NCBI GenBank assembly: GCA_965260925.1
Contig: CBDHBZ010000008.1
Coordinates: 1,493,005 to 1,557,004 of the forward strand
Length of the DNA stretch: 64,000 nt
Origin: Abditibacterium sp.
GTDB taxonomy: Bacteria > Armatimonadota > Abditibacteriia > Abditibacteriales > Abditibacteriaceae
Direction: 5' to 3'
Shown: piece after piece, positions 19,502 through 34,272 of the stretch
How the letters are laid out: every line of letters starts with the position of its first letter
Numbering within the stretch: the stretch's first letter is position 1
Notes under the pieces: generated by a model
The model's database searches: none
What the model was told of the DNA's origin: nothing
Seen by the model: only the letters and a program-made list of their open reading frames with translations
Made by a program: the position numbers and the translations under genes

Positions 19502-19615
19502 CGTTGCGATTGTGATGTTCTGCGGGGCTGACGCCCTCTTCCAATCGGTAAAGTTCCTCGATATTCCGCCGATTGGAAGAGGGCGTCAGCCCCGCAGAAC
19601 ATCACAATTGCGACG
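19502..19615. repeat. Long hairpin element (47-nt arms), copy 1 of the family that brackets the RT module
   Basis: Arms at 19502-19548 and 19569-19615 (two G:T positions). Its core GTTCTGCGGGGCTGACGCCCTCTTCCAATCGG resembles that of the 27473-27588 copy. Confidence 0.9.
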
Positions 19616-19651: not shown

Positions 19652-21070
19652 TCACCGCGCCAGCCACGGATGCGTGCCCACCAACTTTTCGGCGCGCGCG
19701 GCATCGCTCATGGCGATCCAGGCGATCATGCCGCGCGCGTAGCCCAGCGAATCGCGCCCGATCTGCGCGCTCATTTGGTCGGCGCCCAACTGTTCGTAGC
19801 GATGCAGAAACGCGCGAAACCGCCGCAAATCGGCGCGCGAAACGCGCGGACTCGCGGCGTCCTGCGCGTTGACGACCAAACCCGTCACGACTTGCCGCAT
19901 ATTCGGGCGCATCACGGCGGTTTTCTCGTCGTTGACGACGAACTTCTCGTCGGCCACAACGCGCCGCGTCAGGCCGATGAGTTTGTTCACATCGGCGCCC
20001 GAATCGCTGGAAAATACCAGGTCGTCGGCGTAACGCGAGTAAACGAAACCCAGAGTCGCGGCGATTCCGCTCAGCCGTGCATCCAAGCGGCGGCACAGCA
20101 AATTAGTCAACGCGGGCGAAGTGCAGGCGCCTTGGGGCAAGGCGCGTTCGCCGACGGCGACGTAACGTTTGGTCGCGTCCAGAGTCAGTTCGACGCGCGG
20201 CGCTTCGGTCGCCAAAAGCGCCAGCATGGTGGCGATGCCCTCGTTATAGCCGAAATTCTCGAACTGCCGTTTGACGCGTTTGAAGCCGATGGACGGAAAG
20301 AAATTTTTGAGGTCTATGCGCACCACGACCGATTTTCCCAGGTGCCGACCCGCGTTTTCGACGACGTTGGCGCCCGCCACAAACGCCGTAGCGGCATCGT
20401 GAATCGGCAACGGCGCCAGAATGCTTTCCAGCAACCAACTCTGAGCGCGGCGCAGTTTGGTTTTGGGCGACGAAACGTTGCGCATTCCGCCGCGCTTTTT
20501 CGGGATCTGAAAGCGATGATAATGATCGATTGAAGAAGCGCCGCGATGGTAACAGAGCCACGTCAGTTCGGGCGCGGGGATGCCGATCGCCGCCGCCAAA
20601 TCGGCGGGCGTTTGCAATGCGGGCAAACCCAAACGCTCGCGTTGCGCGTCGTTGCCGCCTTCAAATTTCAGGCCCTGAGAAACGCCGTGACCCAAAAATT
20701 GCGGTTCGTTGGCGCGTTTGGTTTTCCACAGTTCGGCGTTACGCGCGGCCTCGACTTTGTGGCGTTCGCGGCGTTCTTCGCGCGCGGCTTTGACGCGCGC
20801 GATGCGGCGCGCGCGAATCTCGTCGAGGGCGGTTTGCACGTCGGCGGTTACAGCGATGGCGGCTTCGACGAGGGTGAGTTCGAGGCGTAGCGGCGCGACT
20901 TCGCGGTCGAGCCGCGCGACTTCGCGCTCGGCAATTTCGACTTGTTCTTGCAAGCCTTCGGGCGGCGGCCAAAATCCCAGACGGCGCATCTCGGCCATCT
21001 CGAAAGCCTCTTTGCCTTCGGCTTTGATGCGCGCGCGCCAATCGGTGGGAACGGATTCGTTTTCTGCCAT
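19652..21070 (-). CDS. Retron-type reverse transcriptase with an N-terminal coiled-coil extension of about 145 aa
   Basis: LGLPALQTPADLAAAIGIPAPELTWL...IPKKRGGMRNVSSPKTKLRRAQSWLLESIL; VVENAGRH (NAxxH); RIDLKNFFPSI; LPQGACTSPALTNLL; SRYADDLVFSS; RQVVTGLVVN. Residues 1-145 are Glu/Arg/Ala-rich helix. Confidence 0.85.
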   Translation of the reverse strand: MAENESVPTDWRARIKAEGKEAFEMAEMRRLGFWPPPEGLQEQVEIAEREVARLDREVAPLRLELTLVEAAIAVTADVQTALDEIRARRIARVKAAREERRERHKVEAARNAELWKTKRANEPQFLGHGVSQGLKFEGGNDAQRERLGLPALQTPADLAAAIGIPAPELTWLCYHRGASSIDHYHRFQIPKKRGGMRNVSSPKTKLRRAQSWLLESILAPLPIHDAATAFVAGANVVENAGRHLGKSVVVRIDLKNFFPSIGFKRVKRQFENFGYNEGIATMLALLATEAPRVELTLDATKRYVAVGERALPQGACTSPALTNLLCRRLDARLSGIAATLGFVYSRYADDLVFSSDSGADVNKLIGLTRRVVADEKFVVNDEKTAVMRPNMRQVVTGLVVNAQDAASPRVSRADLRRFRAFLHRYEQLGADQMSAQIGRDSLGYARGMIAWIAMSDAARAEKLVGTHPWLAR

Positions 21071-21095
21071 GATTTTTAGGATTTATCTTGCGCTC

Positions 21096-21110
21096 CCGTG
21101 CTCCGCACGG
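21096..21110 (-). promoter_or_regulatory. Conserved intercistronic mini-hairpin upstream of the RT start
   Basis: CCGTGC-TCC-GCACGG followed by AATACGCA, about 26 nt upstream of ATG 21070. A near-identical motif lies at 23122-23140. Confidence 0.3.
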
Positions 21111-21120
21111 AATACGCAAC

Positions 21121-23103
21121 TCAACCTTCCAGCATTTCCTGGAATTCTGCTTCGGTCAAAACTTGAACGCCCAGCAGTTTGGCTTTGACCAATTTGCCGC
21201 CCGCTTTATCGCCCGCGACCAGATAATCCAAATTTTTCGAGACGCCGCTCGCCGCCTTGCCGCCACGTTGTTCGACCAAGCTCTGCGCCTGATCGCGCCC
21301 ATAAATCGTTAGAGTTCCGGTGAAACAGAACGATTTACCCGCGAACTGTTGCACGTCGAAACTCGCGCCCGCGCTTTTGCTTTTGGACGTGGCTGCTCTC
21401 AAACCCGTGACGCGCGCCGAAGCCAATGCCGTCGCCGACAGAATGTGGGCGCACGGGCCTTTCTTGAGTTTGTCGCGCCGAAAATCGGCGCACGAACACT
21501 GCGCGAACGGCACGCGCCCGTCGGCATCAACGTCAACCGTGACGTCGAACTTGGCCTGGTTGCGCGTCGAACCGCGCGCGTCAACCGTGGAAACCTGCGC
21601 TTCCAAACGCGTCAAACCGGCGCGCAAGCCGAAATCGTTGTCTTCGTCGGCCTCTTTCCACTTGACGCCGCCCGCCGCCACGATGCGCCGCGCCAACTCG
21701 ACTTTCGGGTCGCGTTGCCCCGCCAGCGCCTGCGCGCCCGGTGGCAACAATTTGCGCCAACGGTAAAACTCGCCGATCGGATCGAACATCGCGTCGCCAT
21801 CGCGGCAGATCTGCTGCAAAGCCGCCGTCGCCGTTTCGCGCGATAGATCCGAGCGCGCCGCGAGGGCTTGCGGCGTCAGTTTGAGCGCGCTTTCCAGTTG
21901 CCCGCGCGCCAGTTCGATGTCGCCCGCCGTGACCGGCGCCGTGGCTGCTAACAAGTCGAAGCGCGCCGCGCTCGACCAGTCGTTTTTCGTCCAACCGCTC
22001 AGCCCGACATCGAAGCGATGCCCGCCCGCTTCGACGCTCCAAAAGTGCGGCATTCCGCTGCCCAGCAAACGCACCTGGACGGTTTCCGAGTAAGCCAACA
22101 GCGACTCGATGGAAAACAAGCGGCGCCGTCCCCACACGCGAACGGTCGTTGATTCGCCCTGAAAAACGTGATGGTGTTCGGCGATTTCGATGTTCCACGG
22201 CTCCAGAACGATCTTCGGATTGGCGCCGTTTGCTAATTCAAAACGGATGGCGCGCGGCGATTCTTTCTCGCGGTCGCGGCGCAAAATCATCAACAGTTCG
22301 GCCACGGTCGAAGCGCTCAAAGTCAAATCGATGCCCGGCAGCGTCGAGGCCGATTGCACTTGCAAAAAGCCGCGCACCCAGGAGGGCGGCAAGTCGATCT
22401 TCTTTTCCAGACGCGCGCCCGCGTCGGTGCCGATGCTAACGCCGCCGCCTTCGACGCTCAGCCTTGCCGGACGATAAGAACGAACGCGCCGAATTTCGTC
22501 GGCCAAGGCCGCCGAGAAGTCCACGTTGGTGGTGCCAAACACGGTTTCGCCCTCGGTTTGCAAGTTGTCGGCGGCGACGGTGACGCGACCGTAAGAGCTT
22601 TCGTCCTGCGAAAAAACCTCGAAAATCGTGGCGTCGGGATGAACGGAAACGACCGGATCGAGGATGACCCACAACGCGAAATCGCGCGAGTAAAGCCATT
22701 TCCAGTAGCGCCGCTTGGCCTCCCACAATTGCGCCGAACCCAACTTGCTGCGGTGCGGCGCGGCTTCGTCGTTCAGCGATTTGAGTTGCGCGCGCAACGC
22801 TTCGCGCCGCGCGTTTTGCGCGGGCAATTCGTCGCGGCGCGCTGCCAGTTCGGGCGCCAGTTCGCGCATATATTCGCCGCGCACCCATTCCTGGTAGGCG
22901 CTGTGATCTTTGGCGGCGAAGCGCAAATCGGAGCCGACGACTTCAAATAAAGCCAGCATCGCGCGCGCGTAAGCGGGCGAGTTTTTGATCGTCGCGTGCA
23001 AACGCACGGCGGGGCGGCCCTGCTGCGCGGCGAGCGAAAACGCCATCGCGTCGCCGACATCAGCCACGCCGGAGGGCTTCGCGTAAGTTTGAGTGATCCA
23101 CAT
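21121..23103 (-). CDS. SWIM zinc-finger protein with a C-terminal BRCT domain
   Basis: SWIM CxC...CxH: FAQCSCADFRRDKLKKGPCAHILSA (about 21445-21510). BRCT resembling that of LigA: FAGKSFCFTGTLTIYGRDQAQSLVEQRGGKAASGVSKNLDYLVAGDKAGGKLVKAKLLGVQVLTEAEF (about 21124-21360). The start is set at ATG 23103 (MWITQTY). Confidence 0.75.
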   Translation of the reverse strand: MWITQTYAKPSGVADVGDAMAFSLAAQQGRPAVRLHATIKNSPAYARAMLALFEVVGSDLRFAAKDHSAYQEWVRGEYMRELAPELAARRDELPAQNARREALRAQLKSLNDEAAPHRSKLGSAQLWEAKRRYWKWLYSRDFALWVILDPVVSVHPDATIFEVFSQDESSYGRVTVAADNLQTEGETVFGTTNVDFSAALADEIRRVRSYRPARLSVEGGGVSIGTDAGARLEKKIDLPPSWVRGFLQVQSASTLPGIDLTLSASTVAELLMILRRDREKESPRAIRFELANGANPKIVLEPWNIEIAEHHHVFQGESTTVRVWGRRRLFSIESLLAYSETVQVRLLGSGMPHFWSVEAGGHRFDVGLSGWTKNDWSSAARFDLLAATAPVTAGDIELARGQLESALKLTPQALAARSDLSRETATAALQQICRDGDAMFDPIGEFYRWRKLLPPGAQALAGQRDPKVELARRIVAAGGVKWKEADEDNDFGLRAGLTRLEAQVSTVDARGSTRNQAKFDVTVDVDADGRVPFAQCSCADFRRDKLKKGPCAHILSATALASARVTGLRAATSKSKSAGASFDVQQFAGKSFCFTGTLTIYGRDQAQSLVEQRGGKAASGVSKNLDYLVAGDKAGGKLVKAKLLGVQVLTEAEFQEMLEG

Positions 23104-23121
23104 AATGTGATTTGGATGGTT

Positions 23122-23140
23122 TTCCGTGCGGAGCACGGAA
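23122..23140 (-). promoter_or_regulatory. Conserved intercistronic mini-hairpin upstream of the SWIM-BRCT start
   Basis: TTCCGTGC-GGA-GCACGGAA followed by TCGCA, about 19 nt upstream of ATG 23103. Confidence 0.3.
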
Positions 23141-23147
23141 TCGCACG

Positions 23148-26100
23148 CTAAATTGCGCCGACCCCACTGACTTCTACGCCCGCGATTTCGCTTTCCAAAG
23201 CGCGCCGCGCCAACTGTTGCAGCGCCCATTCGGCGTCGCGCGGCGTTTTGCCGCGCGCCAACTCCAACAAAGTCGCGTCATCGGGCAAAGGCGCGCTTTG
23301 GCTACGACGCGTTTGCACCAAATTCTTGGCGCGCCGCGCCCGATTGCGCCCGCGCAAAACCGCGCGGTCGAACTCGATTGGCGCCGTTTCGGCATCACGC
23401 TCCAACAGCAAATTTGCCACGAAACCCTGCATTTCGGCGTTGGGATTCTCTTCCAATTTCGCCAACAAACCGTCGCCAATTAAATCATCCAAACGCGCGC
23501 CGACGAACTCGCGTCCATACTGGCGGGCGCGTAAACGCGGGCTGTCGCACAATGCCAGCGCCAGATTGGCAATGTTTTCCTCGCGCGACTCGAACCAAAC
23601 TTTCGCCGCGTCCATCGCGTCGCGCAAATCCGATTCGAGTAAGCGCAACGCGATCGGCACGGTCAAACCGCGCGCGACCAGACCGCTCAAACCGATCGCG
23701 CGCACGGCGGGTAACGGATGAATCGCGGCTTCGATCAAAGTTTCGGCGTCCAGTTCGCGCGCGCCCAGCCAGAGGGTAATCAGCGATTCGAGTGAGGGAT
23801 CGTCGAACTGCGTCACGTCGCTTTCCAGCATCCCAAAAGTCGCGGCGAACTCGGCATCGTCAATTAAACGCCCGCGCAAAAAACCGCCCGCAAACCCTTG
23901 CGAGCGCGCCGCTTCCCAGAACGCTTCGCGGCGGGCGGCGTCGGTTTTTAGCACTTGCAGAAGGGCGTCGCGCCACAACAGCCACACGGCTTCGGGCACA
24001 CTGGCGATAAGGCTCAGCAGCAACGCGGGCGCGAGTTGTCCGGCGGCCCCGGCGAAAGTCGCGGCGATAACGGGATCATCGAAGGTGCGCGCTCGCAACT
24101 GTTCGGCGCCCTCTTTTTTGGCGTCGAGATATTGCTGAACCGCGCCCCAAAACTGCGCGCCAATCGCCGGATGCGGCGCGATGGCGGCGACGAACCCGGT
24201 TTTCCATTCGCCCCAACGTGCATCGGTCAAATCGGCAATTGTTTTCACCGTCACTTCGGCGGGCAAAAACAGCGCGTAGGCGCCGAAAACTTCGCCCGGC
24301 ACGCCCGCGTTGGTGTAGTAGGCGCCCGCTTCGCTGCCCGCAAACTCGCCGCTCCAACGCGGGCGCACTTCGCGCCAATCCAACTCGCCGCGCACCAGAG
24401 CGGCGCGCGCATCGGCATCCGAAAGCGCGCTTTGCAGCGCATCCGAAATGCGCCAATTGACCGTGCGCGCGTTCCAATCGTAGCTTTGCGTCAGGCCGCG
24501 CAGCAAACTCAGCCAGACCGCGCCCAGCGTCGCGCTTTTGGTGCGCGATGCCGCCACCAACTGCCACGCCACAACGCGCGCCTCGCGCGATGGGGCGCGC
24601 ACGGCTTTGTCGATCTGTTCTTTATCGAAATCGGCGCGCGAGGCGCTTTCTAAGAGCGCTTCCAACACGGCGGCGTTGTTTAGAGCGAACGGAATCAGCG
24701 GCAAAACCTGCGCGGCGCTCAGGCGGCGACAAAACTGCGCGCCCAACGATTTGAGCGGCGCTTCGCTCGAATTCAGCAGCGCGCGCAACGCGGGCAACGC
24801 GCCGTCAGCGCGAAATTCGGGGTTCGACAAATCGAAGCGCGCCGCCAACAACAGCGCCAGTTCGCGCCCGCGCCGCGTCAGCGATTGAACCGTCATGCGG
24901 CGCCCAAATTTGTCGCGTTCAATCGGCAAGGATGCGCCCAGAAAATTCGCCAGTTCGCTGGCGATTGCGGGCGAAGGTTGGGCGCGCTCCAACAACGCGC
25001 GGCGCTTCAGCGGGTTCGACGCGGCGATGGCGCCCGCAACGGCGCGCGGCGAAAGCGCCGAAACGTCGCTTTCCAGAGCCGCGCGCGCGCCGATCACGCG
25101 CAGATCAGGCCAATTGGACGCGACGTAACTCTCGATTTGTGCCGCCGATAGCCGGGACGTGGCTGCTGTCGCCTGCCGCGCCAAATGCACGACGGGCGCC
25201 GTCACGCTATTTTCAACCAGCGAATTTAATTGCTCTGGATGCAAATTCCACGCGTCGGACGCGCGCTCGACGCGGCGCTTGACGACGAGCGATTTCGCGT
25301 TATAAAGATAGGCGCCGCGCCCGTGCGAAGCCTGATGCCAGTTCGGATGATTGGCGGCGACCAAATCGGCGGCGATCCAATTGTTGTCCCAGTCGAGATT
25401 GGGTTTATCGGCAATCTCCGCGAAAAACGCGCTCGCCAGAGCCGTGAATCCGTCGGCGTCGGATCGGGACAAATCGCGCAGCAAACGTCGCCCGCGCCGC
25501 TTCATATAAGCGAAAGTTTTCGGATCGGGCGCTTTGCCGATTTCCTGAATGGTTTTCGGATCGGAAACATCGAGCAAACGCAAGCCCGCGCGCGTGCCCA
25601 GATAAAGCGTGTCGCCCGCTAATGCCAGCGACGAAACTTCGTTGTAGCGCGCCGAACCGAAATCGTATTCGCCCGTAATCGACGGATTCTTGGGATTGGA
25701 CAGATCGAGCAAGCGGATTTTAGTGGCGAAACTGCCGCGATTCCAAGTCTGGCAAAAAACGGCGGCGCGATCCGCTTCGCACGCGAGGAAGCTCGCGCCT
25801 TCCACTTTTAGCTTGCCGATTTGACGCGGATTATCCAAATCGCTCAAATCGTAAGTAAATAATTCGTTGTTAGAAAAGCTCAACCAGAAGTCGCCGCACG
25901 GCTGCAAAACCGAGGCGTAATCGGTGGGCAACTTGCCCGCCAAACGCGGATTGGCCGCGTCCGATAAATCGGCGAAATTCAGTTCGTAAGTCGCGCCACG
26001 CCGCCCGTAATTATAGGTCATCGCCGCCGCGAAATTCGGCCCACCGATCAAACCGTAATAAGTTTGGACGAACTCGCCACTGCCGACCTCGATCAAACTT

Positions 26101-26684
26101 CCGTCGCGCACTTCGCTCACGCGCAGCGTTGCGCCGTCCAGACTGATGATGCGTTCGCCCGCGATCGCCGTGCCGAAAGTGTTCTGCTTGAACTCGCCAT
26201 CTAATGCGGGCGTGGAGGGGTTTTCTACGTTCAAACGCCAGACTTTGCCGCCGCTACGCAACCACAAATAGCCCGCCGAAACTTCCAGTCCGACCGGTAT
26301 CGGATCGGTTAAATCGGGCGACCAAACCGAAATTAATTGCGGCTGGGCGGGCGCGCTCAAATCGTAGGTTTGCAGTTCGCGCCCGCGCGACCAAAGGTAG
26401 GCGAAACCACCAGCCACGTTCAAAGCGCCGAAACTGCCCGCGACGGCGACATCGGCGCTTTTACCGATAGTTTCCAGCGGTTGCTCATCTATGCGCGCCA
26501 ACAATGCCGCCACGATTTCGGGTTCGCGCGCACCATTACGATACGCGGCTTCGGCCTCTTTATAGAGGCGTTTGAAACCCTGCCAGGGGCCGTAAACCAA
26601 GGGCGCCGCGCGAATCCAATCGAGCGTCGCGGCGCGCGTGGCTGCATCGGCGGGCGGAAACGAGGGCGGCGTGAAATTGGACAT
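23148..26684 (-). CDS. 1178-aa protein: N-terminal helical segment, beta-propeller-like repeat region, long ARM/HEAT-like helical C-terminal part
   Basis: Six spaced strands of the type x-DLS-x-P-x-x-P: YDLSAPAQPQ, LNVENPSTPA, ADLSDAANPRL, YDLSDLDNPRQ, LDLSNPKNPSI, LDVSDPKTIQ (LVIVD-like). Residues about 420-1178 are Leu/Ala-rich helical repeats with no catalytic motif recognised. Confidence 0.7.
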   Translation of the reverse strand: MSNFTPPSFPPADAATRAATLDWIRAAPLVYGPWQGFKRLYKEAEAAYRNGAREPEIVAALLARIDEQPLETIGKSADVAVAGSFGALNVAGGFAYLWSRGRELQTYDLSAPAQPQLISVWSPDLTDPIPVGLEVSAGYLWLRSGGKVWRLNVENPSTPALDGEFKQNTFGTAIAGERIISLDGATLRVSEVRDGSLIEVGSGEFVQTYYGLIGGPNFAAAMTYNYGRRGATYELNFADLSDAANPRLAGKLPTDYASVLQPCGDFWLSFSNNELFTYDLSDLDNPRQIGKLKVEGASFLACEADRAAVFCQTWNRGSFATKIRLLDLSNPKNPSITGEYDFGSARYNEVSSLALAGDTLYLGTRAGLRLLDVSDPKTIQEIGKAPDPKTFAYMKRRGRRLLRDLSRSDADGFTALASAFFAEIADKPNLDWDNNWIAADLVAANHPNWHQASHGRGAYLYNAKSLVVKRRVERASDAWNLHPEQLNSLVENSVTAPVVHLARQATAATSRLSAAQIESYVASNWPDLRVIGARAALESDVSALSPRAVAGAIAASNPLKRRALLERAQPSPAIASELANFLGASLPIERDKFGRRMTVQSLTRRGRELALLLAARFDLSNPEFRADGALPALRALLNSSEAPLKSLGAQFCRRLSAAQVLPLIPFALNNAAVLEALLESASRADFDKEQIDKAVRAPSREARVVAWQLVAASRTKSATLGAVWLSLLRGLTQSYDWNARTVNWRISDALQSALSDADARAALVRGELDWREVRPRWSGEFAGSEAGAYYTNAGVPGEVFGAYALFLPAEVTVKTIADLTDARWGEWKTGFVAAIAPHPAIGAQFWGAVQQYLDAKKEGAEQLRARTFDDPVIAATFAGAAGQLAPALLLSLIASVPEAVWLLWRDALLQVLKTDAARREAFWEAARSQGFAGGFLRGRLIDDAEFAATFGMLESDVTQFDDPSLESLITLWLGARELDAETLIEAAIHPLPAVRAIGLSGLVARGLTVPIALRLLESDLRDAMDAAKVWFESREENIANLALALCDSPRLRARQYGREFVGARLDDLIGDGLLAKLEENPNAEMQGFVANLLLERDAETAPIEFDRAVLRGRNRARRAKNLVQTRRSQSAPLPDDATLLELARGKTPRDAEWALQQLARRALESEIAGVEVSGVGAI

Positions 26685-26709
26685 GACTTTTCAATCGAAT
26701 AGCAGGGGG

Positions 26710-26815
26710 ATTTCACACAAAGGAACCACACAAAGGAACAAAGATCGCACAAAGAGTAAGAAGAAAATAAAATGTTCAACTCTCTTCTTCCCCTTTGTGA
26801 GTCTTTGTGTGAAAT
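26710..26815. repeat. Inverted repeat with an AT-rich centre, immediately upstream of the 1178-aa gene
   Basis: ATTTCACACAAAG (26710-26722) pairs with CTTTGTGTGAAAT (26803-26815). CACAAAGGAAC is repeated internally. Confidence 0.7.
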
Positions 26816-26841
26816 GCCCAAGCTCAAATTTCAACTGCGAT

Positions 26842-27118
26842 TCTGAACCGGCGATGGGCCGAACTCGGCGAAACAGAAGGCGCCACAAAACAAGAGGAGA
26901 CCGGCGGCGTTCACTGTAGCAATTGGCGTAGCCCTCTTGATTGGCGGCCCGTGCGCACGCGGACTCAGCGCGGTGACGCGAATCGAGAGGGCTACGCTAA
27001 TTGCGAAAACGCAACGGCGTGCCGGTGACGTATGACGGGCTTAACTTCAACCGCGACGAACCATCGCAGAAATGCTGGCCACTTTCTGAGTTCGCAGAGC
27101 CGTCCCATCGCCGGTTCA
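26842..27118 (-). ncRNA. Candidate structured RNA unit A (retron msr/msd-like layout); strand not proven
   Basis: Outer 15-bp stem TGAACCGGCGATGGG (26844-26858) / CCCATCGCCGGTTCA (27104-27118). Conserved 26-mer AGGAGACCGGCGGCGTTCACTGTAGC (26895-26920). Unit-specific hairpin at 26921-27002. Conserved ~75-nt block at 27003-27077. Confidence 0.4.
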
Positions 27119-27162
27119 AAAACGGCGAGAAATCGAGCAAATTAAAAATTTAACCAAACGAA

Positions 27163-27383
27163 ACGAGCGAGTTTTCACTTAACAAAAGGAGACCGGCGGC
27201 GTTCACTGTAGCGATATACGCAGTAGTGCGGCGCACCCGCCCATGCGTTTGCGGACTCAGCGTGGTGCGGGTGCGCCGCACTACTGCGTATATCGCGAAA
27301 ACGCAACGGCGTGCCGGTGACGTGTAACGAGCTTGACTTCAACCGCGACGAATCATCGCAGAACTTGCTGAAAACTCGCTCGC
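27163..27383 (-). ncRNA. Candidate structured RNA unit B (retron msr/msd-like layout); strand not proven
   Basis: Outer 13-bp stem CGAGCGAGTTTTC (27165-27177) / GAAAACTCGCTCG (27371-27383). Identical 26-mer at 27187-27212. Perfect 28-bp unit-specific hairpin at 27213-27294. Conserved block at 27295-27369. Confidence 0.4.
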
Positions 27384-27401
27384 CTCGTTCGGTTGCATTC
27401 A

Positions 27402-27430
27402 ATCTTAACCGATGTGGCGCGGCTTCACAA
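27402..27430 (-). promoter_or_regulatory. Weak candidate promoter reading into unit B
   Basis: On the minus strand: TTGTGA (27430-27425), a 17-nt spacer, TAAGAT (27407-27402), about 20 nt before the outer stem of unit B. Confidence 0.2.
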
Positions 27431-27472
27431 GGGGTAGTGAAAACATTTTTGGATGGGATCGTTGTATGACAT

Positions 27473-27588
27473 TTGAAGCACATGAACGTTCTGCGGGGAG
27501 GTCGCCCTCTTCCGATCAGGATAAGTTCCTCGACAGCGCGCCCGATTGGAAGAGGGCGACCTCCCCGCAGAACGTTCATGTGCTTCAA
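27473..27588. repeat. Long hairpin element (45-nt arms), copy 2 of the family that brackets the RT module
   Basis: Arms at 27473-27517 and 27544-27588 (one G:T). The core GTTCTGCGGGGAGGTCGCCCTCTTCCGATC and the loop motif TAAGTTCCTCGA are shared with 19502-19615. Confidence 0.9.
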
Positions 27589-27700
27589 CTGCCGAATTAG
27601 CGTTCAAAGTGCAACAGCTTCCGGATACGCGGGGCACAGTTTTCCTCAATTCGCGCGTTTTGCGAGAGGCGATTTAGGCTAAAATTCACTTGGTTTTCTC

Positions 27701-29224
27701 GTGTCTTCTGCTCCGCCATTTTCCTCGCACCTCTCCGACGAGGCGCGCCGCCGCGCCTCGTATGTGATTCTGTTCACCGCGTTTTTGGACGTGCTGGGCT
27801 TTTCGATCATCATCCCGCAGCTCGCGGTTTACGCGGCGCAGTTCGGCGCGACGCCCGCCATGACCGGACTTTTGGCTTCGGTCTATTCGATGATGGGCTT
27901 TTTGTTCACGCCGTTTTGGGGCCGACTTTCCGATCGCATCGGGCGCCGTCCGGTTTTGCTCTATTCGATATTTGGCACCGCCGTTGGCTACGTCTTTTTC
28001 GCGTTCGCTTCTTCGCTGTGGTTTCTGTTCGCCTCGCGCATTATTGACGGCATCACTGGCGGCAACATCGGCACGGCGCAGGCGTATCTCTCGGACATTA
28101 CGCCGCCCGCCGAGCGCGCCAAAAACTTCGGATTGTTCGGCGCGACTTTTGGCATCGCCTTCGCCATCGGGCCTTTGATCGGTTCGGCGCTGACGCATTT
28201 GCCCGGCGTGTGGGGCGGCAACTTAGGTTTGGGCGCGTTTTCGGGCGGATTGGCTTTGCTCAATTGGGCGTTGGCGGTCAAGTTTCTGCGCGAAACTTTG
28301 CCCGAAGCCACGCGTAAAAACGCCGAAGCCAATAAAGATAACAAACGCTCGTTTATAACGGGTTTTTCGCGCGCCTTGAAAATTCCCCGGCTCAACCAGG
28401 CGATCGTGATCGGCTTTTTGGCGACGGCGGCGTTCGCCACGATTCAGGGCACTTACGCGCTTTATATTCTCAAGGAATACACGCGCCCGCTGGTGCAATC
28501 CGAGATTCGCCAAAATCCGCAGGCCGCCGCCGCGCGCGCCGAAAAATTGCGTTTTGCGCAGCGCACAACCGCGCCGATGCCGCCAACCGAAGGCGGCGCC
28601 GAAGTGAGCGATGATCCGACCAAACCTTACCCACCGTCATTGGGCGGCGACTTCACCTTCGATGGAGCCACTTCGCCCGACGGCTTGAGCTGGCGCGAAG
28701 TCGAGAAGCTCATCGTGCGACCCGAATCGGCGCGTTTGATCGGCTATATTTTCGGCGTCATCGGCATTTTATCTTTGATCGTGCAGGGCGGATTGATTCG
28801 GCCTTTGCAGAAAATGTTTGGCGAAGTGCCCTTAGTTTTGGCGGGCACTTTCATCATGGCGGCGGGCCTGATGAGCGTGGCGATCATCGAGCAAATCATC
28901 CCTCATGTTATCTGGGGCCAATATCTGGCGTGCGGCATTTTGACTTTGGGCAACGGCATCGCCACGCCAGTTTTGACTTCGCTGGTCTCGCAATACGCGC
29001 CCGAAAATGAGCGCGGCGAACTGCTGGGCATTTATCAATCGACGCAGAGTCTGGGCCGCATCGTCGGCCCCAACCTGGGCGGCGTTTTGTTCGGCGCCGT
29101 CGCGGCGGGCGCGCCTTTTATCGCGGGCGGCATCATCATGCTGGGCGCGGGCGCCCTCGCGTTTCGCCTGCGCGGCAACGGCAAGGCGGAGGACATGGCT
29201 GCTACCGGCGCTACGGCACAATAG
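27701..29224 (+). CDS. MFS transporter with a large hydrophilic central loop
   Basis: Multiple TM segments; MFS motif-A-like FWGRLSDRIGRRPVLL; ARIIDGITGGNIG. GTG start. Confidence 0.8.
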   Translation: MSSAPPFSSHLSDEARRRASYVILFTAFLDVLGFSIIIPQLAVYAAQFGATPAMTGLLASVYSMMGFLFTPFWGRLSDRIGRRPVLLYSIFGTAVGYVFFAFASSLWFLFASRIIDGITGGNIGTAQAYLSDITPPAERAKNFGLFGATFGIAFAIGPLIGSALTHLPGVWGGNLGLGAFSGGLALLNWALAVKFLRETLPEATRKNAEANKDNKRSFITGFSRALKIPRLNQAIVIGFLATAAFATIQGTYALYILKEYTRPLVQSEIRQNPQAAAARAEKLRFAQRTTAPMPPTEGGAEVSDDPTKPYPPSLGGDFTFDGATSPDGLSWREVEKLIVRPESARLIGYIFGVIGILSLIVQGGLIRPLQKMFGEVPLVLAGTFIMAAGLMSVAIIEQIIPHVIWGQYLACGILTLGNGIATPVLTSLVSQYAPENERGELLGIYQSTQSLGRIVGPNLGGVLFGAVAAGAPFIAGGIIMLGAGALAFRLRGNGKAEDMAATGATAQ

Positions 29225-29657
29225 TTTCGTTCAAATGCCCGATCATTTGGGCGACTGCGGGCGAATTGTGCGGGCGAAAGGCATCGGCAAACGCGGCTCT
29301 ATCCAATCCGCCCTGCGCCAAACTGTGGAAAAATGTCTCGAACAAAATACCGCGTTCTTGCTTCGTCATTGCGCCCAGAATTGCGGCGAACTCGGCGGGG
29401 TTTTCCTGCGCCCAAAGTCCCACAACCGAGTCGCGTTGAGTCGTCACAGCTTCGCCGGGCGGATTGGCCAGCCACGCGCGAACTTCGCTGGCGTCACCGC
29501 TTTTTTCGTAGCGCGCCAAAACGCGATTAGTGTCGATTCCGGTGCGGCCAATTAAATCGGAATTCGCGTAATCATACGCTTCGAGTCCGCGCCATAGCAA
29601 CGGCAGCAAAGCCAGGATTAAGGCGGCGAACGCGACGAGTTTCCACTTCTTTTTCAT
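29211..29657 (-). CDS. Membrane-anchored hypothetical protein
   Basis: Start moved to MKKKWKLVAFAALILALLPLLW (ATGA overlap with the upstream gene). No motif recognised. Confidence 0.45.
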   Translation of the reverse strand: MKKKWKLVAFAALILALLPLLWRGLEAYDYANSDLIGRTGIDTNRVLARYEKSGDASEVRAWLANPPGEAVTTQRDSVVGLWAQENPAEFAAILGAMTKQERGILFETFFHSLAQGGLDRAAFADAFRPHNSPAVAQMIGHLNETIVP

Positions 29658-30010
29658 ATCGAGTTCTCCGTCAATTGAACCACTCGCCCATCGCCATATT
29701 TGACGTTGACGAAACGGCCCCAACTCGCCGTCTTCGGCGGCGAAATCGGCTCGACGCCCAACGCGCGCAAATTTGCCAGCGTTTCATCGAGCGACGAAAC
29801 GGCGAAGCCGATCATCGTCAAATCGCTGGTCTCGCCTGCACGCGTCGGGTAAATCTCGAAAATTAAGCCGCCCAAATCGCACGAGTAATGCTGCGGCCCG
29901 GCGCCGTGCTGTTCTTGCACGAAACTCAAACCGAGCGCCCGATAAAACGCCAATGCGGCTTCTATATCGGCAGTGCGAACGACGAGCAGCGAAAATTTTG
30001 TGGAGTTCAC
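29654..30010 (-). CDS. VOC/glyoxalase-bleomycin resistance family protein
   Basis: 118 aa; LLVVRTADIEAALAFYRALGLSF...FEIYP...MIGFAVSSLDETLANLRALG. Confidence 0.65.
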   Translation of the reverse strand: MNSTKFSLLVVRTADIEAALAFYRALGLSFVQEQHGAGPQHYSCDLGGLIFEIYPTRAGETSDLTMIGFAVSSLDETLANLRALGVEPISPPKTASWGRFVNVKYGDGRVVQLTENSI

Positions 30011-30135
30011 GGCGATTATTTTAGCTCATAATCTACCCGTCAGGTAGGAAATAGTGGAAACGTGTCGCAATGGGCGCGCGTATCAATGCTTCAAGCGAGC
30101 ATTTCCCAGGCATAAACGTTTCAAAGGGCGCGCCA

Positions 30136-30229
30136 CGCGGAGACGTGGAGAGAATGAAGAACCATTAAACGAGGAAGTCAGATTTCCTTTGATGTTTGGT
30201 TTTCTCTTCATCCTCTCTGCGTCTCCGCG
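30136..30229. repeat. Inverted repeat element
   Basis: CGCGGAGACG (30136-30145) pairs with CGTCTCCGCG (30220-30229). The inner GGAGAGAATGAAGAA / TTCTTCATCCTCTCT pair is imperfect. Confidence 0.7.
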
Positions 30230-30277
30230 CGGGGCGTGAAATCTAAAAACGTTAAACTTGCCGATGCTCCCAAAATT

Positions 30278-31429
30278 ATGAAGCTGACTAACCCCGAAAT
30301 CATGCGCTACGGGCGCCACTTGATTATGCCGGAAGTGGGCGTCGAAGGTCAGGAAAAGCTCAAGGCGTCCAAACTTCTGATGATCGGCGCGGGCGGTTTA
30401 GGTTCGCCCGCCGGACTCTATCTGGCCGCTTCGGGCGTCGGAGAAATCACCATTCTCGATCCCGATGTCGTGGACGTTTCCAACCTGCAACGCCAAATTT
30501 TGCACGACTCGTCCAGCGTCGGCGTGCCCAAAGTCGAATCGGCCAAAAACCGCATGGCCGAAGTCAATCCGTTCGTCAAAGTCAACGCGATTCAAGACGC
30601 CGTTTCGACCGAGAACGTGATGGAACTGGTCAAAAGCCACGACATTGTGGTCGATGGCACCGACAACTTCGAGACGCGCTACATCGTCAACGACGCCTGC
30701 GTTTTGACCAATACGCTCAACGTTTACGGCTCGATTTTCCGCTTCGACGGCCAATCCACCGTTTTCGCCGACCCGAATGGCCCGTGCTATCGCTGCTTAT
30801 ATCCCGAACCGCCGCCCCCCGGCATGGTACCCTCGTGCGCCGAAGGCGGCGTTTTGGGCGTGTTGCCCGGCATCGTCGGCACGATTCAGGCGACCGAAGC
30901 CTTGAAAATCTTGATGGGCGCGGGCAATCCTTTGATTGGCCGTCTGCTGATTTACGACGCTCTGGCGATGACGTTTCGCACCTTGAAAATCCGCAAAGAC
31001 CCGGATTGCCCGATCTGCGGCGATCATCCGACGATTACCGAACTTCTGCCCGCCGCCGATTATCGTTTTCTGTGCGGTATTTCGGAAGATTCGCTGGGCG
31101 CCGATCCGAAATCGATCGAGCAGATTTCGGCGACCAAAGCCAAGGAATGGATGGACGGCAGCGACGCCAAATTTTTGGACGTGCGCAGCGACGAAGAGGT
31201 GCAAATCACCAAATTGCCCAACTCGGTTCACATTCCCTACGCGGATTTGCTGGGCCGCGTTAAAGAGTTGGATTCGGCGCAGGATTACGTCGTGTTCTGT
31301 CATGTCGGCGACAGTTCGGCGCGCGCCATCGCCGGTCTGCAAAAGCTGGGCTTCAAGAAATTGAAGAACATGGCGGGCGGCATTGACGCGTGGTCGAAAA
31401 ACGTGGACGAAAGCGTGCCGCGCTATTAA
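30278..31429 (+). CDS. moeB: MoeB/ThiF-family adenylyltransferase fused to a C-terminal rhodanese domain (MoeZ-like)
   Basis: RYGRHLIMPEVGVEGQEKL...LMIGAGGLGSP...DVVDVSNLQRQ; CYRCLYPEPP; CPICG; rhodanese tail VVFCHVGDSSARA. ATG 30278 is preferred because the listed GTG start lies in the repeat. Confidence 0.85.
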   Translation: MKLTNPEIMRYGRHLIMPEVGVEGQEKLKASKLLMIGAGGLGSPAGLYLAASGVGEITILDPDVVDVSNLQRQILHDSSSVGVPKVESAKNRMAEVNPFVKVNAIQDAVSTENVMELVKSHDIVVDGTDNFETRYIVNDACVLTNTLNVYGSIFRFDGQSTVFADPNGPCYRCLYPEPPPPGMVPSCAEGGVLGVLPGIVGTIQATEALKILMGAGNPLIGRLLIYDALAMTFRTLKIRKDPDCPICGDHPTITELLPAADYRFLCGISEDSLGADPKSIEQISATKAKEWMDGSDAKFLDVRSDEEVQITKLPNSVHIPYADLLGRVKELDSAQDYVVFCHVGDSSARAIAGLQKLGFKKLKNMAGGIDAWSKNVDESVPRY

Positions 31430-31723
31430 AGGTTGTCAGGAGATCAGGATTCAGTTGTCAGGAGAGAAAATGAAACGTTGTCGCTATAGCGAAAGTCTGG
31501 CGCGGCGTGCGCTCTTCCCGATGACCGACTTCCTGACAACTGACTCATTGACACTTGACACCCTAACAATTGTCCAAATTTCGGCGATGCCCGTTGGCAT
31601 CGCCGTTTCTTTTGTTTTCTGGCGATTTGTGCGCTTTATCGCGGACAGCGGGCCGGAGCATCGGATAAAATAATCTGCGTCGGGCGCTAATTTGTAGCGC
31701 GCCTAAATTTGGAGATTCCCCTT

Positions 31724-32383
31724 TTGAAAACCACTCGTTCTTCCTCTTTTGTTTTGTCTCGGTTGCGCGCCTTGCCGTTGCTGGCGATCGGCCTGAGTTG
31801 CGCCGTCGCGTTCGTGCCCGCGCCGCGTGCCGCGCACGCGCAAACCATGACTGTTGGCGTCGTTGACGAAGATAAACTCGCCGAAAGTTACAAGGCTTAC
31901 CAGACCGCCATCGCCGCCGTTGACACGCGCGCGCAGGGTTTGGACTCTAAGATTCCGGCCCGCGAATATCTTAACGAAACCGAGGGCAAAGCCTTCGATA
32001 GCATTATCGTTTTGCCGACGCTGGCGGCTTCGCAGCAGACGCAACTCGACGGTTTGGTCAAAACTGGCAACGAGCGCAAAGTCGAGTTTCTGGGCTTGAT
32101 CGGCAACGCCAATCGCACGCCCGCCAACAACGCGCGGCTCAAAGAGTTGCAAGATATCGCCACCAAAAATGGCCCCGATTTGCAGCGTCTGTCGCAAAAC
32201 CTGTTGGAAGCGATCCGCAAACAGCAGGACGATGTGGACAAAAGCTACACCGACAAAGCCAACTCGGTCGTGCAGCAAGTCGCCACCGAAAAGAAATTGT
32301 CCGCCGTGCTGCGCAAAAAAGCGCTGGTCTGGTCGGCGGATAGCATCGACATCACCAACGACGTGCTGAAGCGCTTGAATTAA
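31724..32383 (+). CDS. skp: Skp/OmpH-like periplasmic chaperone
   Basis: Signal peptide ...AFVPAPRAAHAQ, then a coiled, Gln/Lys-rich body. It lies upstream of lpxD. A TTG start 9 nt after GGAG is proposed. Confidence 0.6.
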   Translation: MKTTRSSSFVLSRLRALPLLAIGLSCAVAFVPAPRAAHAQTMTVGVVDEDKLAESYKAYQTAIAAVDTRAQGLDSKIPAREYLNETEGKAFDSIIVLPTLAASQQTQLDGLVKTGNERKVEFLGLIGNANRTPANNARLKELQDIATKNGPDLQRLSQNLLEAIRKQQDDVDKSYTDKANSVVQQVATEKKLSAVLRKKALVWSADSIDITNDVLKRLN

Positions 32384-32403
32384 GTTCGGCTTACTTTTTC
32401 TTC

Positions 32404-32481
32404 TGCGAACCGCGAGCGTGAGCGACCGGCTAAGTTCAACTGCCAAGAAACTACGACTTAGCCGGACGCTCGCGGTTCGCA
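32404..32481. repeat. Inverted repeat element downstream of skp
   Basis: TGCGAACCGCGAGCGT (32404-32419) pairs with ACGCTCGCGGTTCGCA (32466-32481). Inner pair CCGGCTAAGT / ACTTAGCCGG. Confidence 0.85.
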
Positions 32482-32553
32482 AGAAAACAGCAAACGCGGT
32501 TCTCGTCCTTTTCAAAGGATGAACATCAACGCGTTCTGTCAAATAACAAACTT

Positions 32554-33885: not shown

Positions 33886-34272
33886 TCGCCACGAGATACG
33901 CGTTCGCACATAAGTTCGTAGCCACGCGTGCGCGCGAAATTGTGAGTGAAACCGCGATTTCTGGCGGGCCGCTAAAGAACTGGTATTAAGAATCCGCTAA
34001 GAACCGGAACCAAACGGCGCGCAACTCTAAACGCGCGCGAGTTTCTGTAAAAGTGGTAAAATAGGGCCGAGCCAAATGTTCGCACGCATTGCCACGCACT
34101 CCCACGCATGGCAAAGGTGCGGGCGAACGGTTTTGCCGGGGTTTGCAGCGCGTTTTTTAGCCGCAATGTTGCCGCACTCCTGAACATCACAGCACTTCAT
34201 CACCGTCTTTTTGTTGCCGCGTCGCATCATCATAACCAGCGGCCAACACAACTATTCAGGAGAAAATTTTTC

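What the first reader, a model, noticed from the sequence alone, without database searches (positions are those of the whole stretch)
26842..27383. Two tandem structured units with identical cores and unit-specific compensating stems (retron msr/msd-like)
Units A (26842-27118) and B (27163-27383) share two blocks:
- an identical 26-mer, AGGAGACCGGCGGCGTTCACTGTAGC;
- a ~75-nt block, GCGAAAACGCAACGGCGTGCCGGTGACGT...CTTCAACCGCGACGAA.CATCGCAGAA, whose first 29 nt are identical, with about 5 substitutions afterwards.

Between these blocks each unit has a long hairpin of unrelated sequence. In A it is AATTGGCGTAGCCCTCT/AGAGGGCTACGCTAATT and continues inward. In B it is a perfect 28-bp stem, GATATACGCAGTAGTGCGGCGCACCCGC/complement. 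Both hairpins keep the apical motif GCGGACTCAGCG(C/T)GGTG.

Each unit is also closed by its own outer inverted repeat: 15 bp in A (TGAACCGGCGATGGG/CCCATCGCCGGTTCA) and 13 bp in B (CGAGCGAGTTTTC/GAAAACTCGCTCG). Pairing conserved with sequence replaced is the classical sign of a functional RNA or ssDNA structure.

Read on the minus strand (operon sense), the order is outer repeat a1, AGC, ~75-nt conserved region, long variable hairpin, ~30 nt, outer repeat a2. That is the canonical retron ncRNA layout. Two different msd-like hairpins serving one RT would be unusual.

The strand is not settled. G:T positions in the unit A stem favour the plus strand, while A:C positions in the extended unit B outer stem favour the minus strand.
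Basis: seen in the sequence. Interest (0 to 1): 0.85.

Follow-up and report, generated by a model that had tools for sequence, protein, structure and literature searches.

The report
Natural two-unit retron ncRNA array
The two repeated hairpin units are two complete, side-by-side template RNAs of a known bacterial retron (type XIII) that share one reverse transcriptase. This doubled or tripled layout is conserved in relatives, recurs in other phyla, and I could not find it described for natural retrons.

Summary
The retron reading is supported.

**What the locus is.** The units lie at the head of a minus-strand operon. Its three genes match the PADLOC type XIII retron models:
- HEAT-ARM/WGR, 23148-26684
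- SWIM (plus BRCT), 21121-23229
- RT_XIII, 19652-21070

**Unit anatomy.** Each unit has the canonical msr-msd layout:
- a unit-specific a1/a2 outer stem;
- an invariant CA-G-CA branch motif facing an invariant G;
- a conserved msr of about 75 nt;
- an 82-nt msd hairpin with a 28-bp stem of free sequence and a conserved tip;
- a conserved 3' block.

**Structure and strand.** Across 15 units, 39 of 70 pairs show compensatory changes. Pairing is 95%, against 77% after shuffling. Invariant G·U pairs put the RNA on the minus strand.

**Conservation.** All 10 close relatives (RT 68-98% identical) also carry exactly two units. A. utsteinense and 16 other lineages show one. Independent arrays of 2-3 units occur in other Armatimonadota, Planctomycetota and Bacteroidota.

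**Evolution.** msd stems are nearly saturated with change while keeping length and pairing. The a1/a2 pairs of the two units do not cross-pair.

**Verdict.** This is a natural "multitron": one RT most likely makes two different msDNAs. It is a new variant of a known kind. msDNA production and any defence role are untested.

The parts
27402..27430 (-). Promoter-like motif of the array. On the minus strand it reads TTGTGA (27430-27425), a 17-nt spacer, then TAAGAT (27407-27402), about 8 nt before the distal a1.
   Evidence: GTGAAG...GGTTAAGAT is conserved upstream of every distal unit in 11 loci, and upstream of both units in L086. It is absent before the proximal units of the window clade (alignment). 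The consensus scan did not call it because it matches only 8 of 12 positions. Promoter function is inferred.
27147..27399 (-). Unit B, the distal (first transcribed) msr-msd unit.
- a1: about 27370-27399
- branch G: 27368
- msr: 27295-27368
- msd hairpin: 27213-27294 (82 nt)
- conserved 3' block: 27176-27212
- opposing G: 27178
- a2: 27147-27177
   Evidence: It is orthologous to the distal units of L081-L090 and resembles the single unit of A. utsteinense L002 in its a1 and promoter.
26838..27124 (-). Unit A, the proximal msr-msd unit.
- extended a1: about 27078-27124
- branch G: 27075
- msr: 27003-27075
- msd hairpin: 26921-27002 (82 nt)
- conserved 3' block: 26884-26920
- opposing G: 26886
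- a2: 26838-26885
   Evidence: Its a1/a2 (CGTTTTTGAACCGG... / ...CCGGTTCAGAATCG) is conserved with compensatory changes in the proximal units of nine of the ten close loci; L086 has a different a1/a2.
26685..26837 (-). Leader between the array and the first ORF. It contains an inverted repeat (26701-26722 / 26803-26824) and a 13-nt direct repeat.
   Evidence: In relatives this spacer is 37-262 nt among the well-called genes and often holds an unrelated hairpin. In L084 the hairpin is followed by a T-tract about 10 nt before the ATG; in L083 the tail is only T-rich. Co-transcription with read-through is inferred.
23148..26684 (-). HEAT/ARM-WGR accessory protein, 1178 aa.
   Evidence: PADLOC HEAT-ARM_XIII at E 1e-20 and WGR_XIII at E 5e-20. 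Pfam gives only an LVIVD repeat.
21121..23229 (-). SWIM zinc-finger protein with a C-terminal BRCT domain. The longest ORF is 702 aa. Most relatives are called at 660-665 aa, so the true start is probably further downstream.
   Evidence: PADLOC SWIM_XIII at E 4e-162. Pfam SWIM and BRCT. Gene calls in relatives.
19652..21070 (-). Retron reverse transcriptase, 472 aa. It is the only RT in the window.
   Evidence: PADLOC RT_XIII at E 4e-149. Pfam RVT_1. NAGRH, YADD and VTG motifs. tblastn finds no second RT.

Best explanation
The region is a two-unit tandem array of retron msr-msd non-coding RNA genes. It forms the 5' end of a type XIII retron operon on the minus strand, in this order: promoter, unit B, unit A, HEAT-ARM/WGR, SWIM-BRCT, RT.

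**Shown**
- Both units have every sequence and structure hallmark of a retron template RNA.
- Both are conserved as a pair in all close relatives.
- The RNA strand is the operon strand.
- Only the distal unit has a promoter-like motif in front of it.
- The two a1/a2 closing stems do not cross-pair.

**Inferred**
1. One primary transcript carries both units and, by read-through, the three genes.
2. Each unit folds on its own because its a1/a2 pair is private to it.
3. The single RT recognises the near-identical msr of either unit.
4. The RT primes on the 2'-OH of the branch G (27368 in B, 27075 in A). It then copies the conserved 3' block, the 82-nt hairpin and the base stem.
5. This yields two msDNAs of roughly 140-150 nt. 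They share geometry, flanks and hairpin tip but have unrelated 28-bp stems.
6. By analogy with other retrons, the RT-msDNA complexes would hold the HEAT/WGR and SWIM-BRCT proteins in check until phage infection disturbs the msDNA.
7. Two different stems would then give two non-identical sensors or scaffolds from one protein set.
For: **Operon identity.** RT_XIII, SWIM_XIII and HEAT-ARM/WGR_XIII all hit. The RT has the retron motifs.

**Unit anatomy.** Covariation: 70 pairs are 95.1% paired, against 77.4% after shuffling (0/500) and 33-46% when slid. 39 pairs have double changes, including 28 of 33 in the msd hairpin helix and 10 of 12 in a1/a2.

**Strand.** Near-invariant G·U pairs occur at alignment columns 61-77, 66-72, 111-232, 116-227 and 122-220.

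**Branch site.** CAGC and GTG are invariant, with G facing G. This matches the 'two opposing G residues' of retron ncRNAs (PMC7736814).

**Conservation of the pair.** Exactly two units occur in the window and in L081-L090. a1/a2 cluster by position: distal-distal 0.66, proximal-proximal 0.55, distal-proximal 0.25. msr is 0.88-0.92 identical in every comparison.

**Private closing stems.** Cognate a1 x a2 duplexes average -32.5 kcal/mol, against -14.9 for cross pairs.

**Independent folding.** The 576-nt transcript folds into two separate units. The predicted cDNAs fold into identical shapes.

**Single promoter.** The motif precedes only the distal unit. The leader to the ATG is as short as 37-61 nt in relatives.

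**Location.** Copies are found only upstream of type XIII operons.
Against: - No expression, msDNA or phage data exist for this organism or for any of these loci.
- Transcript ends, the single-promoter model and the cDNA stop point are inferred.
- No Rfam family matches, and Mestre's type XIII covariance model was not available, so the ncRNA assignment rests on anatomy.
- The ncRNA lies about 5.7 kb from the RT rather than next to it as in classical retrons.
- In L084 a hairpin with a T-tract (in L083 a hairpin with a T-rich tail) sits between the array and the first ORF. The ncRNAs could therefore be a separate transcription unit.
- The reason for having two units is speculative.
Confidence: 0.8

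Rival explanations
1. Only one unit is a working retron template. The other is a duplication relic or a decoy that the RT binds but does not copy.
For: - Most type XIII loci manage with one unit.
- In L050 the second copy has lost its msd hairpin, so degenerate copies do exist.
- Unit A's stem has more mismatches than unit B's: -41.3 against -66.0 kcal/mol.
Against: - Both units keep the invariant branch motif, msr, hairpin tip, 3' block and an 82-nt hairpin in 11 of 11 loci spanning 68-98% RT identity.
- Both positions show compensatory changes in a1/a2 and in the stem. This indicates selection on each unit's structure.
Confidence: 0.1
2. The units act as a cis-regulatory structured leader of the operon mRNA (attenuator or protein-binding platform) and are not reverse transcribed.
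For: - They sit in the 5' leader of the first ORF.
- L084 has a terminator-like hairpin with a T-tract just before the ATG, and L083 a similar hairpin with a T-rich tail.
- No experimental msDNA exists.
Against: - The architecture is retron-specific: a1/a2, G facing G, msr followed by a long msd hairpin.
- The units co-occur strictly with a retron RT.
- Non-Watson-Crick positions in the msd hairpin lean towards G·T in the cDNA sense, 16 against 6.
- In L080 and L062 the same kind of tandem units lie directly upstream of the RT, as in classical retrons.
Confidence: 0.06
3. The units are copies of a dispersed palindromic repeat (MITE/REP) that happens to lie next to the operon.
For: The neighbourhood does contain a REP/MITE-like palindrome family, at 27470-27591 and 19517-19600.
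Against: - There are no further copies in the 64-kb window.
- There are none elsewhere in the roughly 21-kb flanks of 90 loci.
- Orientation and position relative to the operon are always the same.
- The only metagenome hit is again directly upstream of a HEAT homologue.
Confidence: 0.02

Closest known systems
Type XIII retrons (Mestre et al. 2020, clade 10; includes Retron-Mxa1/Mx162, Mxa2/Mx65, Sau1/Sa163, Nex2/Ne144)
   Same: - Same RT clade, SWIM-domain protein and HEAT/ARM-WGR protein (PMC7736814).
- Long a1/a2 stems.
- A long msd hairpin, with a predicted msDNA of about 140-150 nt. That is the size class of Mx162/Sa163/Ne144 as their names indicate.
- Largely vertical inheritance with the host is reported for type XIII. 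Here the locus is syntenic across relatives.
   Different: - There are two (elsewhere up to three) complete msr-msd units in tandem for one RT.
- The ncRNAs lie ahead of the accessory genes, about 5.7 kb from the RT.
- The SWIM protein carries a C-terminal BRCT domain.
- The host is an Abditibacterium-like bacterium.
- The paper's main text does not mention tandem ncRNAs ('tandem' occurs 0 times).
Engineered 'multitrons': arrayed retron ncRNAs for multiplex editing (González-Delgado et al., PMC10370050)
   Same: Several msr-msd units sit in tandem on one transcript, each with a different msd, and all are served by one RT.
   Different: - Those arrays are synthetic, built from Eco1-type ncRNA.
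- The natural arrays here use a different closing stem (a1/a2) for each unit and keep only short identical stretches (26 and 29 nt) between units.
- That paper's text makes no reference to a natural precedent ('natural' occurs 0 times).
Genomes with two separate retrons (for example Mx162 and Mx65 in Myxococcus xanthus; from established knowledge)
   Same: One cell makes two different msDNAs.
   Different: There, each msDNA has its own RT at its own locus. Here both templates share one msr type, one RT and one promoter-like motif.

Membership tests
Retron (general) | RT with the retron-specific NAxxH (region X) and VTG (region Y, RT7) motifs plus catalytic YADD | tested here: met
   The window RT reads VENAGRH, YADD and VVTGLVVN. 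These residues are invariant across 20 homologues. Motif definitions come from PMC7736814.
Retron (general) | ncRNA in the RT operon, with terminal inverted repeats a1/a2 enclosing msr hairpin(s) and a long msd hairpin | tested here: met
   Single-unit folds. Consensus structure with covariation. The units lie in the same operon but about 5.7 kb upstream of the RT.
Retron (general) | Conserved branching G at the inner end of a1, opposite a G at the inner end of a2 | tested here: met
   CAGC and GTG are invariant in 15 units. C-G and A-U pairs flank a G facing a G. The positions are 27368/27178 for unit B and 27075/26886 for unit A. The 2'-5' bond itself cannot be tested.
Retron (general) | Production of branched msDNA | not testable with these tools
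   Indirect only. msd stems are almost purely Watson-Crick, and their exceptions lean towards G·T in the cDNA sense, 16 against 6.
Type XIII retron | RT belongs to clade 10 / the RT_XIII profile | tested here: met
   RT_XIII at E 4e-149 and 495 bits is the best of 75 PADLOC RT models. The next best is RT_other at 302 bits.
Type XIII retron | Associated SWIM zinc-finger protein (cluster 114) | tested here: met
   SWIM_XIII at E 4e-162 over residues 44-601. Pfam SWIM at 563-599. The DEDE motif was not checked.
Type XIII retron | Associated HEAT/ARM repeat or WGR protein (cluster 216) | tested here: met
   HEAT-ARM_XIII at E 1e-20 and WGR_XIII at E 5e-20. Both are partial matches.
Type XIII retron | ncRNA matches the published type XIII covariance models | not tested
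   The models are not available here. Rfam 15 gives only spurious miRNA-hairpin hits below gathering scores.
MITE/REP dispersed repeat | Many copies scattered independently of RT genes | tested here: not met
   The window holds two copies only. In 90 loci every copy is upstream of the operon and in the same sense. The whole genome was not available.
Anti-phage defence system | Protects against phage | not testable with these tools
   The only support is membership of PADLOC retron models. PMC7736814 notes that type XIII is largely vertically inherited and may have other roles.

The most novel reading that the evidence does not exclude
Type XIII retrons carry natural, expandable arrays of 1-3 msr-msd cassettes. 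Their 28-bp msd stems would be the specificity-bearing part. The stems turn over faster than synonymous sites, keep exact length and pairing, and are occasionally swapped between array positions. Each cassette would then yield a distinct msDNA that senses or resists a different phage factor. Array growth would be an adaptive way to widen a retron's recognition range with one protein set.
Probability: 0.25. Interest if true: 0.8.

Novelty: new variant of a known kind. Interest (0 to 1): 0.6.

Why it matters
**For retron biology.** Retrons are described as one RT with one template RNA. Here one RT is paired with two complete templates, and three in one other lineage. The pair is conserved over substantial divergence, and arrays arose independently in several phyla. 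If both units are copied, a retron can make a set of different msDNAs. That bears on how msDNA sequence relates to phage sensing.

**For genome engineering.** Retron ncRNA arrays have already been built by hand. The natural arrays show how evolution solves the same design problems:
- private a1/a2 closing stems for each unit;
- an identical msr for RT recognition;
- only short identical stretches between units;
- a fixed hairpin length.

**For understudied systems.** The locus is a well-defined type XIII ncRNA from an understudied phylum. Type XIII is a retron type whose mechanism is still unknown.

Tried and rejected
- **Rfam.** The 'evalue' scan of 20000-34000 gave only miRNA-precursor hits on the long hairpins, all below gathering score. 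These are noise.
- **Promoter and terminator scan.** The consensus scan found nothing in 26600-27750. The promoter-like motif came from conservation instead.
- **Folding energy.** It cannot tell the strands apart: -281.8 against -278.8 kcal/mol. Conserved G·U pairs were used instead.
- **Metagenome pattern scans.** The exact conserved 23-mer gave 0 hits, and a relaxed 21-mer gave 1 hit. This yielded little extra sampling.
- **Symmetric pairing count.** It failed on hairpins with bulges. I replaced it with a count based on minimum-free-energy structures.
- **P0011.** This protein could not be located on a contig.
- **Unreadable preprint.** 10.64898/2026.09.22.753630 mentions 'ncRNA array' 10 times, 'reverse transcriptase' 14 times, 'retron' twice and 'msDNA' never. 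It could not be opened, so I cannot exclude that it touches on RT-linked ncRNA arrays.
- **Covariance model.** I did not build one. The roughly 250-nt unit exceeds practical calibration time, and iterated nhmmer on the msr block was sensitive enough.
- **Rejected readings.** A second RT in the window. The 51-bp palindrome at 27470-27591 as a third unit: it is a separate repeat family.

Full report
**1. Observation**

- The 26-mer AGGAGACCGGCGGCGTTCACTGTAGC occurs exactly twice, at 26895 and 27187. No further match appears at up to 3 mismatches, and none is expected by chance.
- The 29-mer GCGAAAACGCAACGGCGTGCCGGTGACGT also occurs exactly twice, at 27003 and 27295.
- The repeat finder gives three collinear shared blocks in a 292-nt register: 72 nt at 92%, 40 nt at 90% and 29 nt at 83%.
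- It also gives a perfect 30-bp hairpin stem in unit B and a 28-nt, 89% stem in unit A.
- The outer inverted repeats are 24 nt for A and 31 nt for B.

**2. Context**

The units lie upstream of a minus-strand operon of three ORFs. Against PADLOC these are:
- HEAT-ARM_XIII / WGR_XIII: 23148-26684, E 1e-20 and 5e-20.
- SWIM_XIII: 21121-23229, E 4e-162. It also has a C-terminal BRCT domain (Pfam).
- RT_XIII: 19652-21070, E 4e-149, the best of 75 RT models.

The RT has the retron hallmarks NAxxH, YADD and VTG (definitions in PMC7736814). It is the only RT in the window. In the classification of Mestre et al. 2020 this is a type XIII retron. That type contains the classical myxobacterial retrons Mx162, Mx65, Sa163 and Ne144.

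**3. Relatives**
- The RT has many homologues. The closest named ones are Abditibacterium (64-66%) and other Armatimonadota.
- I fetched 80 loci from species-representative genomes. I also fetched ten contigs with RTs 68-98% identical to the window's.
- A profile of the units finds them only upstream of the HEAT gene and always in the sense of the operon.
- All ten close loci have exactly two units, like the window.
- A. utsteinense (L002) and 16 other lineages give one hit, even with all filters off.
- L004 has two units and L009 has three.
- A model-free self-comparison of every locus, followed by folding, revealed more tandem pairs. They are in a Planctomycetota MAG (L080, directly upstream of the RT), a Gemmataceae MAG (L062) and a Bacteroidetes MAG (L047).
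- A Thermoflavimicrobium locus (L050) has a second copy that has lost its msd hairpin.
- On a rough neighbour-joining RT tree, the eleven two-unit loci form one clade with single-unit L002 as sister. L004 and L009 are nested among single-unit loci.
- Arrays therefore arose at least three times. Including L047, L062 and L080, probably more.

**4. Structure and strand**

I aligned fifteen units in operon sense. They give a consensus of 70 pairs.
- 39 pairs show changes on both sides.
- With my own pair count, 95.1% of cells pair. This compares with 77.4% after shuffling (0 of 500 shuffles reach it) and 33-46% when partners are slid.
- 28 of 33 pairs of the msd hairpin helix and 10 of 12 pairs of the a1/a2 stem covary.

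The conserved parts contain near-invariant G·U pairs: two in the msr hairpin CUGCGAUGnUUCGUCGCGG and three in the base stem. These would be A·C mismatches on the other strand. The RNA is therefore the minus strand of the window. Folding energy does not discriminate between strands.

Inside the msd hairpins, pairs are almost all Watson-Crick. The exceptions are mostly A·C in RNA sense, which is G·T in the cDNA: 16 against 6 G·U in 20 non-redundant hairpins. This fits a stem that must also fold as reverse-transcribed DNA. The counts are not phylogenetically independent, so I treat this as suggestive.

**5. Anatomy of a unit (5' to 3' on the minus strand)**
- **a1.** It is specific to the unit.
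- **Branch motif.** An invariant CA-G-CA, whose C and A pair with the G and U of an invariant GUG before a2. This leaves the G opposite a G, the 'two opposing G residues' of retron ncRNAs.
- **msr.** About 75 nt, with one strongly conserved hairpin.
- **Base stem.** A conserved stem formed with the 3' block.
- **msd hairpin.** It is 82 nt in 15 of 22 units, with a range of 79-83. It has a 28-bp stem of free sequence and a conserved 26-nt tip (…CACCGCGCUGAGUCCGC…GCACGGG) that has its own compensatory G-C to A-U change.
- **3' block.** Conserved GCUACAGUGAACGCCGCCGGUCUCC…GUUAAGUG.
- **a2.**

The branch G is 27368 in unit B and 27075 in unit A. The facing G is 27178 in B and 26886 in A.

By analogy with characterised retrons, cDNA would start at plus-strand 27179 (B) and 26887 (A) and run through the hairpin into the base stem, about 140-150 nt. 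Both predicted cDNAs fold into the same shape. The stop point is inferred.

**6. How the two units relate**

Identity by segment:

| Segment | Identity |
|---|---|
| msr | 0.88-0.92 in any comparison, within or between loci |
| 3' block | 0.92-0.94 |
| hairpin tip | about 0.83 |
| a1/a2 flanks, distal vs distal | 0.66 |
| a1/a2 flanks, proximal vs proximal | 0.55 |
| a1/a2 flanks, distal vs proximal | 0.25 |

- The flank pattern shows the duplication predates the divergence of these genomes, and each position is orthologous. L086 is the exception: both of its units carry their own promoter-like motif and a different a1/a2.
- The a1 and promoter of the distal unit resemble the single unit of A. 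utsteinense. The proximal unit is therefore probably the added one.
- Cognate a1 x a2 duplexes average -32.5 kcal/mol. Cross pairs average -14.9.
- The 576-nt transcript folds into two separate units.

**7. Stem turnover**
- Stem arms of orthologous units are only 0.44-0.46 identical, about the same as non-orthologous arms (0.41).
- Four-fold degenerate sites of the RT gene are 0.67 identical in the same genome pairs. Stems are the more diverged in 45 of 55 and 53 of 55 pairs.
- Codon bias puts saturation of four-fold sites at about 0.38-0.44. After allowing for this, stems are about 93% of the way to saturation and four-fold sites about 59%.
- The change is punctuated. The window and L084 share most of the distal stem but not the proximal one.
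- Some stems are most similar to a unit at the other array position in another genome: L089 proximal with L090 distal, and L083 distal with L084 proximal, both at 0.68. This hints at cassette exchange through the conserved flanks.
- Variable msd stems are typical of retrons in general, so this is not specific to arrays.

**8. Transcription**
- A motif TTGTGA-17 nt-TAAGAT lies about 8 nt upstream of a1 of every distal unit. It is absent before the proximal units of the window clade.
- In L086 both units carry this motif. In L004 each unit is preceded by a TATACT-like sequence.
- The spacer between the proximal unit and the first start codon is only 37-61 nt in L090, L084 and L083.
- In L084 the spacer holds a hairpin plus T-tract about 10 nt before the ATG. 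In L083 it holds a hairpin with only a T-rich tail. No room is left for a separate promoter.
- I infer a single transcript with partial termination after the array. That would give more ncRNA than mRNA.

**9. Most likely mechanism**

One RT serves two templates. The near-identical msr provides recognition. Private a1/a2 stems keep the units from misfolding in a shared transcript. Two msDNAs with the same geometry but unrelated stems result.

What they do with the HEAT/WGR and SWIM-BRCT proteins is unknown for any type XIII retron. By analogy with other retrons, they would restrain or scaffold the effectors until phage factors alter the msDNA.

Possible reasons for two units are dosage, a heteromeric complex, or a wider sensing range. 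I favour the last only weakly.

**10. Rivals**
- **An inert second copy.** This is unlikely, given conservation and compensatory change at both positions.
- **A purely regulatory leader.** This is hard to square with the retron-specific anatomy and with arrays placed directly before the RT in L080 and L062.
- **A dispersed repeat.** Every copy in 90 loci and the window is operon-linked.

**11. Novelty**

The retron itself is a new member of a known type. The tandem array is, as far as I could find, undescribed for natural retrons.
- Full-text searches for tandem, multiple or second msr-msd or ncRNA gave only engineered 'multitron' arrays (PMC10370050) and unrelated papers.
- Mestre et al. 2020 and the retron census preprint do not mention it.
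- The 2026 SPIRE survey does not mention it either.
- One 2026 preprint that uses the phrase 'ncRNA array' could not be read.

**12. Limits**
- There are no expression or msDNA data.
- Unit counts rest on nhmmer and self-BLAST.
- The tree is a quick neighbour-joining tree.
- The whole genome of the window's organism was not available.

Noticed in passing
window 27470-27591 and 19517-19600: A long palindromic element (51-bp arms; core GTTCTGCGGGG..GCCCTCTTCC-loop-GGAAGAGGGC..CCCCGCAGAAC) lies just upstream of the retron promoter. A related copy (83% identical, with compensating differences in the arms) lies just 3' of the RT gene, so the operon is bracketed. The upstream copy is missing at the same site in the near-identical L087, which has a different palindrome there. 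L081 keeps only a 25-nt remnant. It looks like a mobile REP/MITE-like family or a bidirectional terminator, not part of the retron.
   Followed up: partly
window 26685-26837; L081-L090 equivalents: The leader between the proximal unit and the HEAT start codon holds an inverted repeat (26701-26722 / 26803-26824) and a 13-nt direct repeat (26714-26739). Relatives carry unrelated, often very long palindromes at this spot. L084 has a hairpin plus T-tract ending about 10 nt before the ATG; L083 has a similar hairpin with only a T-rich tail. Possible roles are an attenuator, a processing site or an insertion hot spot.
   Followed up: partly
L009:3321-4187; L004:3914-4523; L080:9440-9900; L062:3090-3680; L047:2940-3560; L050:5225-5830: Other type XIII loci also carry tandem msr-msd units. 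There are three in a Chthonomonadaceae MAG. There are two each in an Armatimonadota, a Planctomycetota, a Gemmataceae and a Bacteroidetes MAG; in the Bacteroidetes case the stems are nearly identical, so the duplication is recent. In Thermoflavimicrobium daqui the second copy lacks the msd hairpin.
   Followed up: partly
L084 and L036 (both from a 4,719,681-nt Abditibacterium sp. contig): The same Abditibacterium genome appears to hold two type XIII RT loci. One is the orthologue of the window's locus (RT 83% identical, two units). The other has an RT only 48% identical, and my msr profile found no unit there.
   Followed up: no
window 21121-23229 (minus strand): The SWIM_XIII protein carries a C-terminal BRCT domain (residues about 610-700). 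It resembles the BRCT of NAD-dependent ligase LigA and PADLOC PDC-S48, and is present in all close relatives. The longest ORF overlaps the end of the HEAT gene by 82 nt, so the real start is probably further downstream; most relatives are called at 660-665 aa.
   Followed up: no
msd hairpins of L081-L090 and the window: Some msd stems are most similar to the unit at the other array position in a different genome: L089 proximal with L090 distal, and L083 distal with L084 proximal, both 0.68 over 28 nt against a background of 0.41. This suggests exchange of hairpin cassettes between positions through the conserved flanks.
   Followed up: partly
window 23148-26684 (minus strand): The 1178-aa HEAT-ARM/WGR protein also gives a weak Pfam LVIVD-repeat hit (residues 350-382) and a weak 'choice-of-anchor B' hit. 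The N-terminal third may therefore be a beta-propeller-like module rather than HEAT repeats.
   Followed up: no
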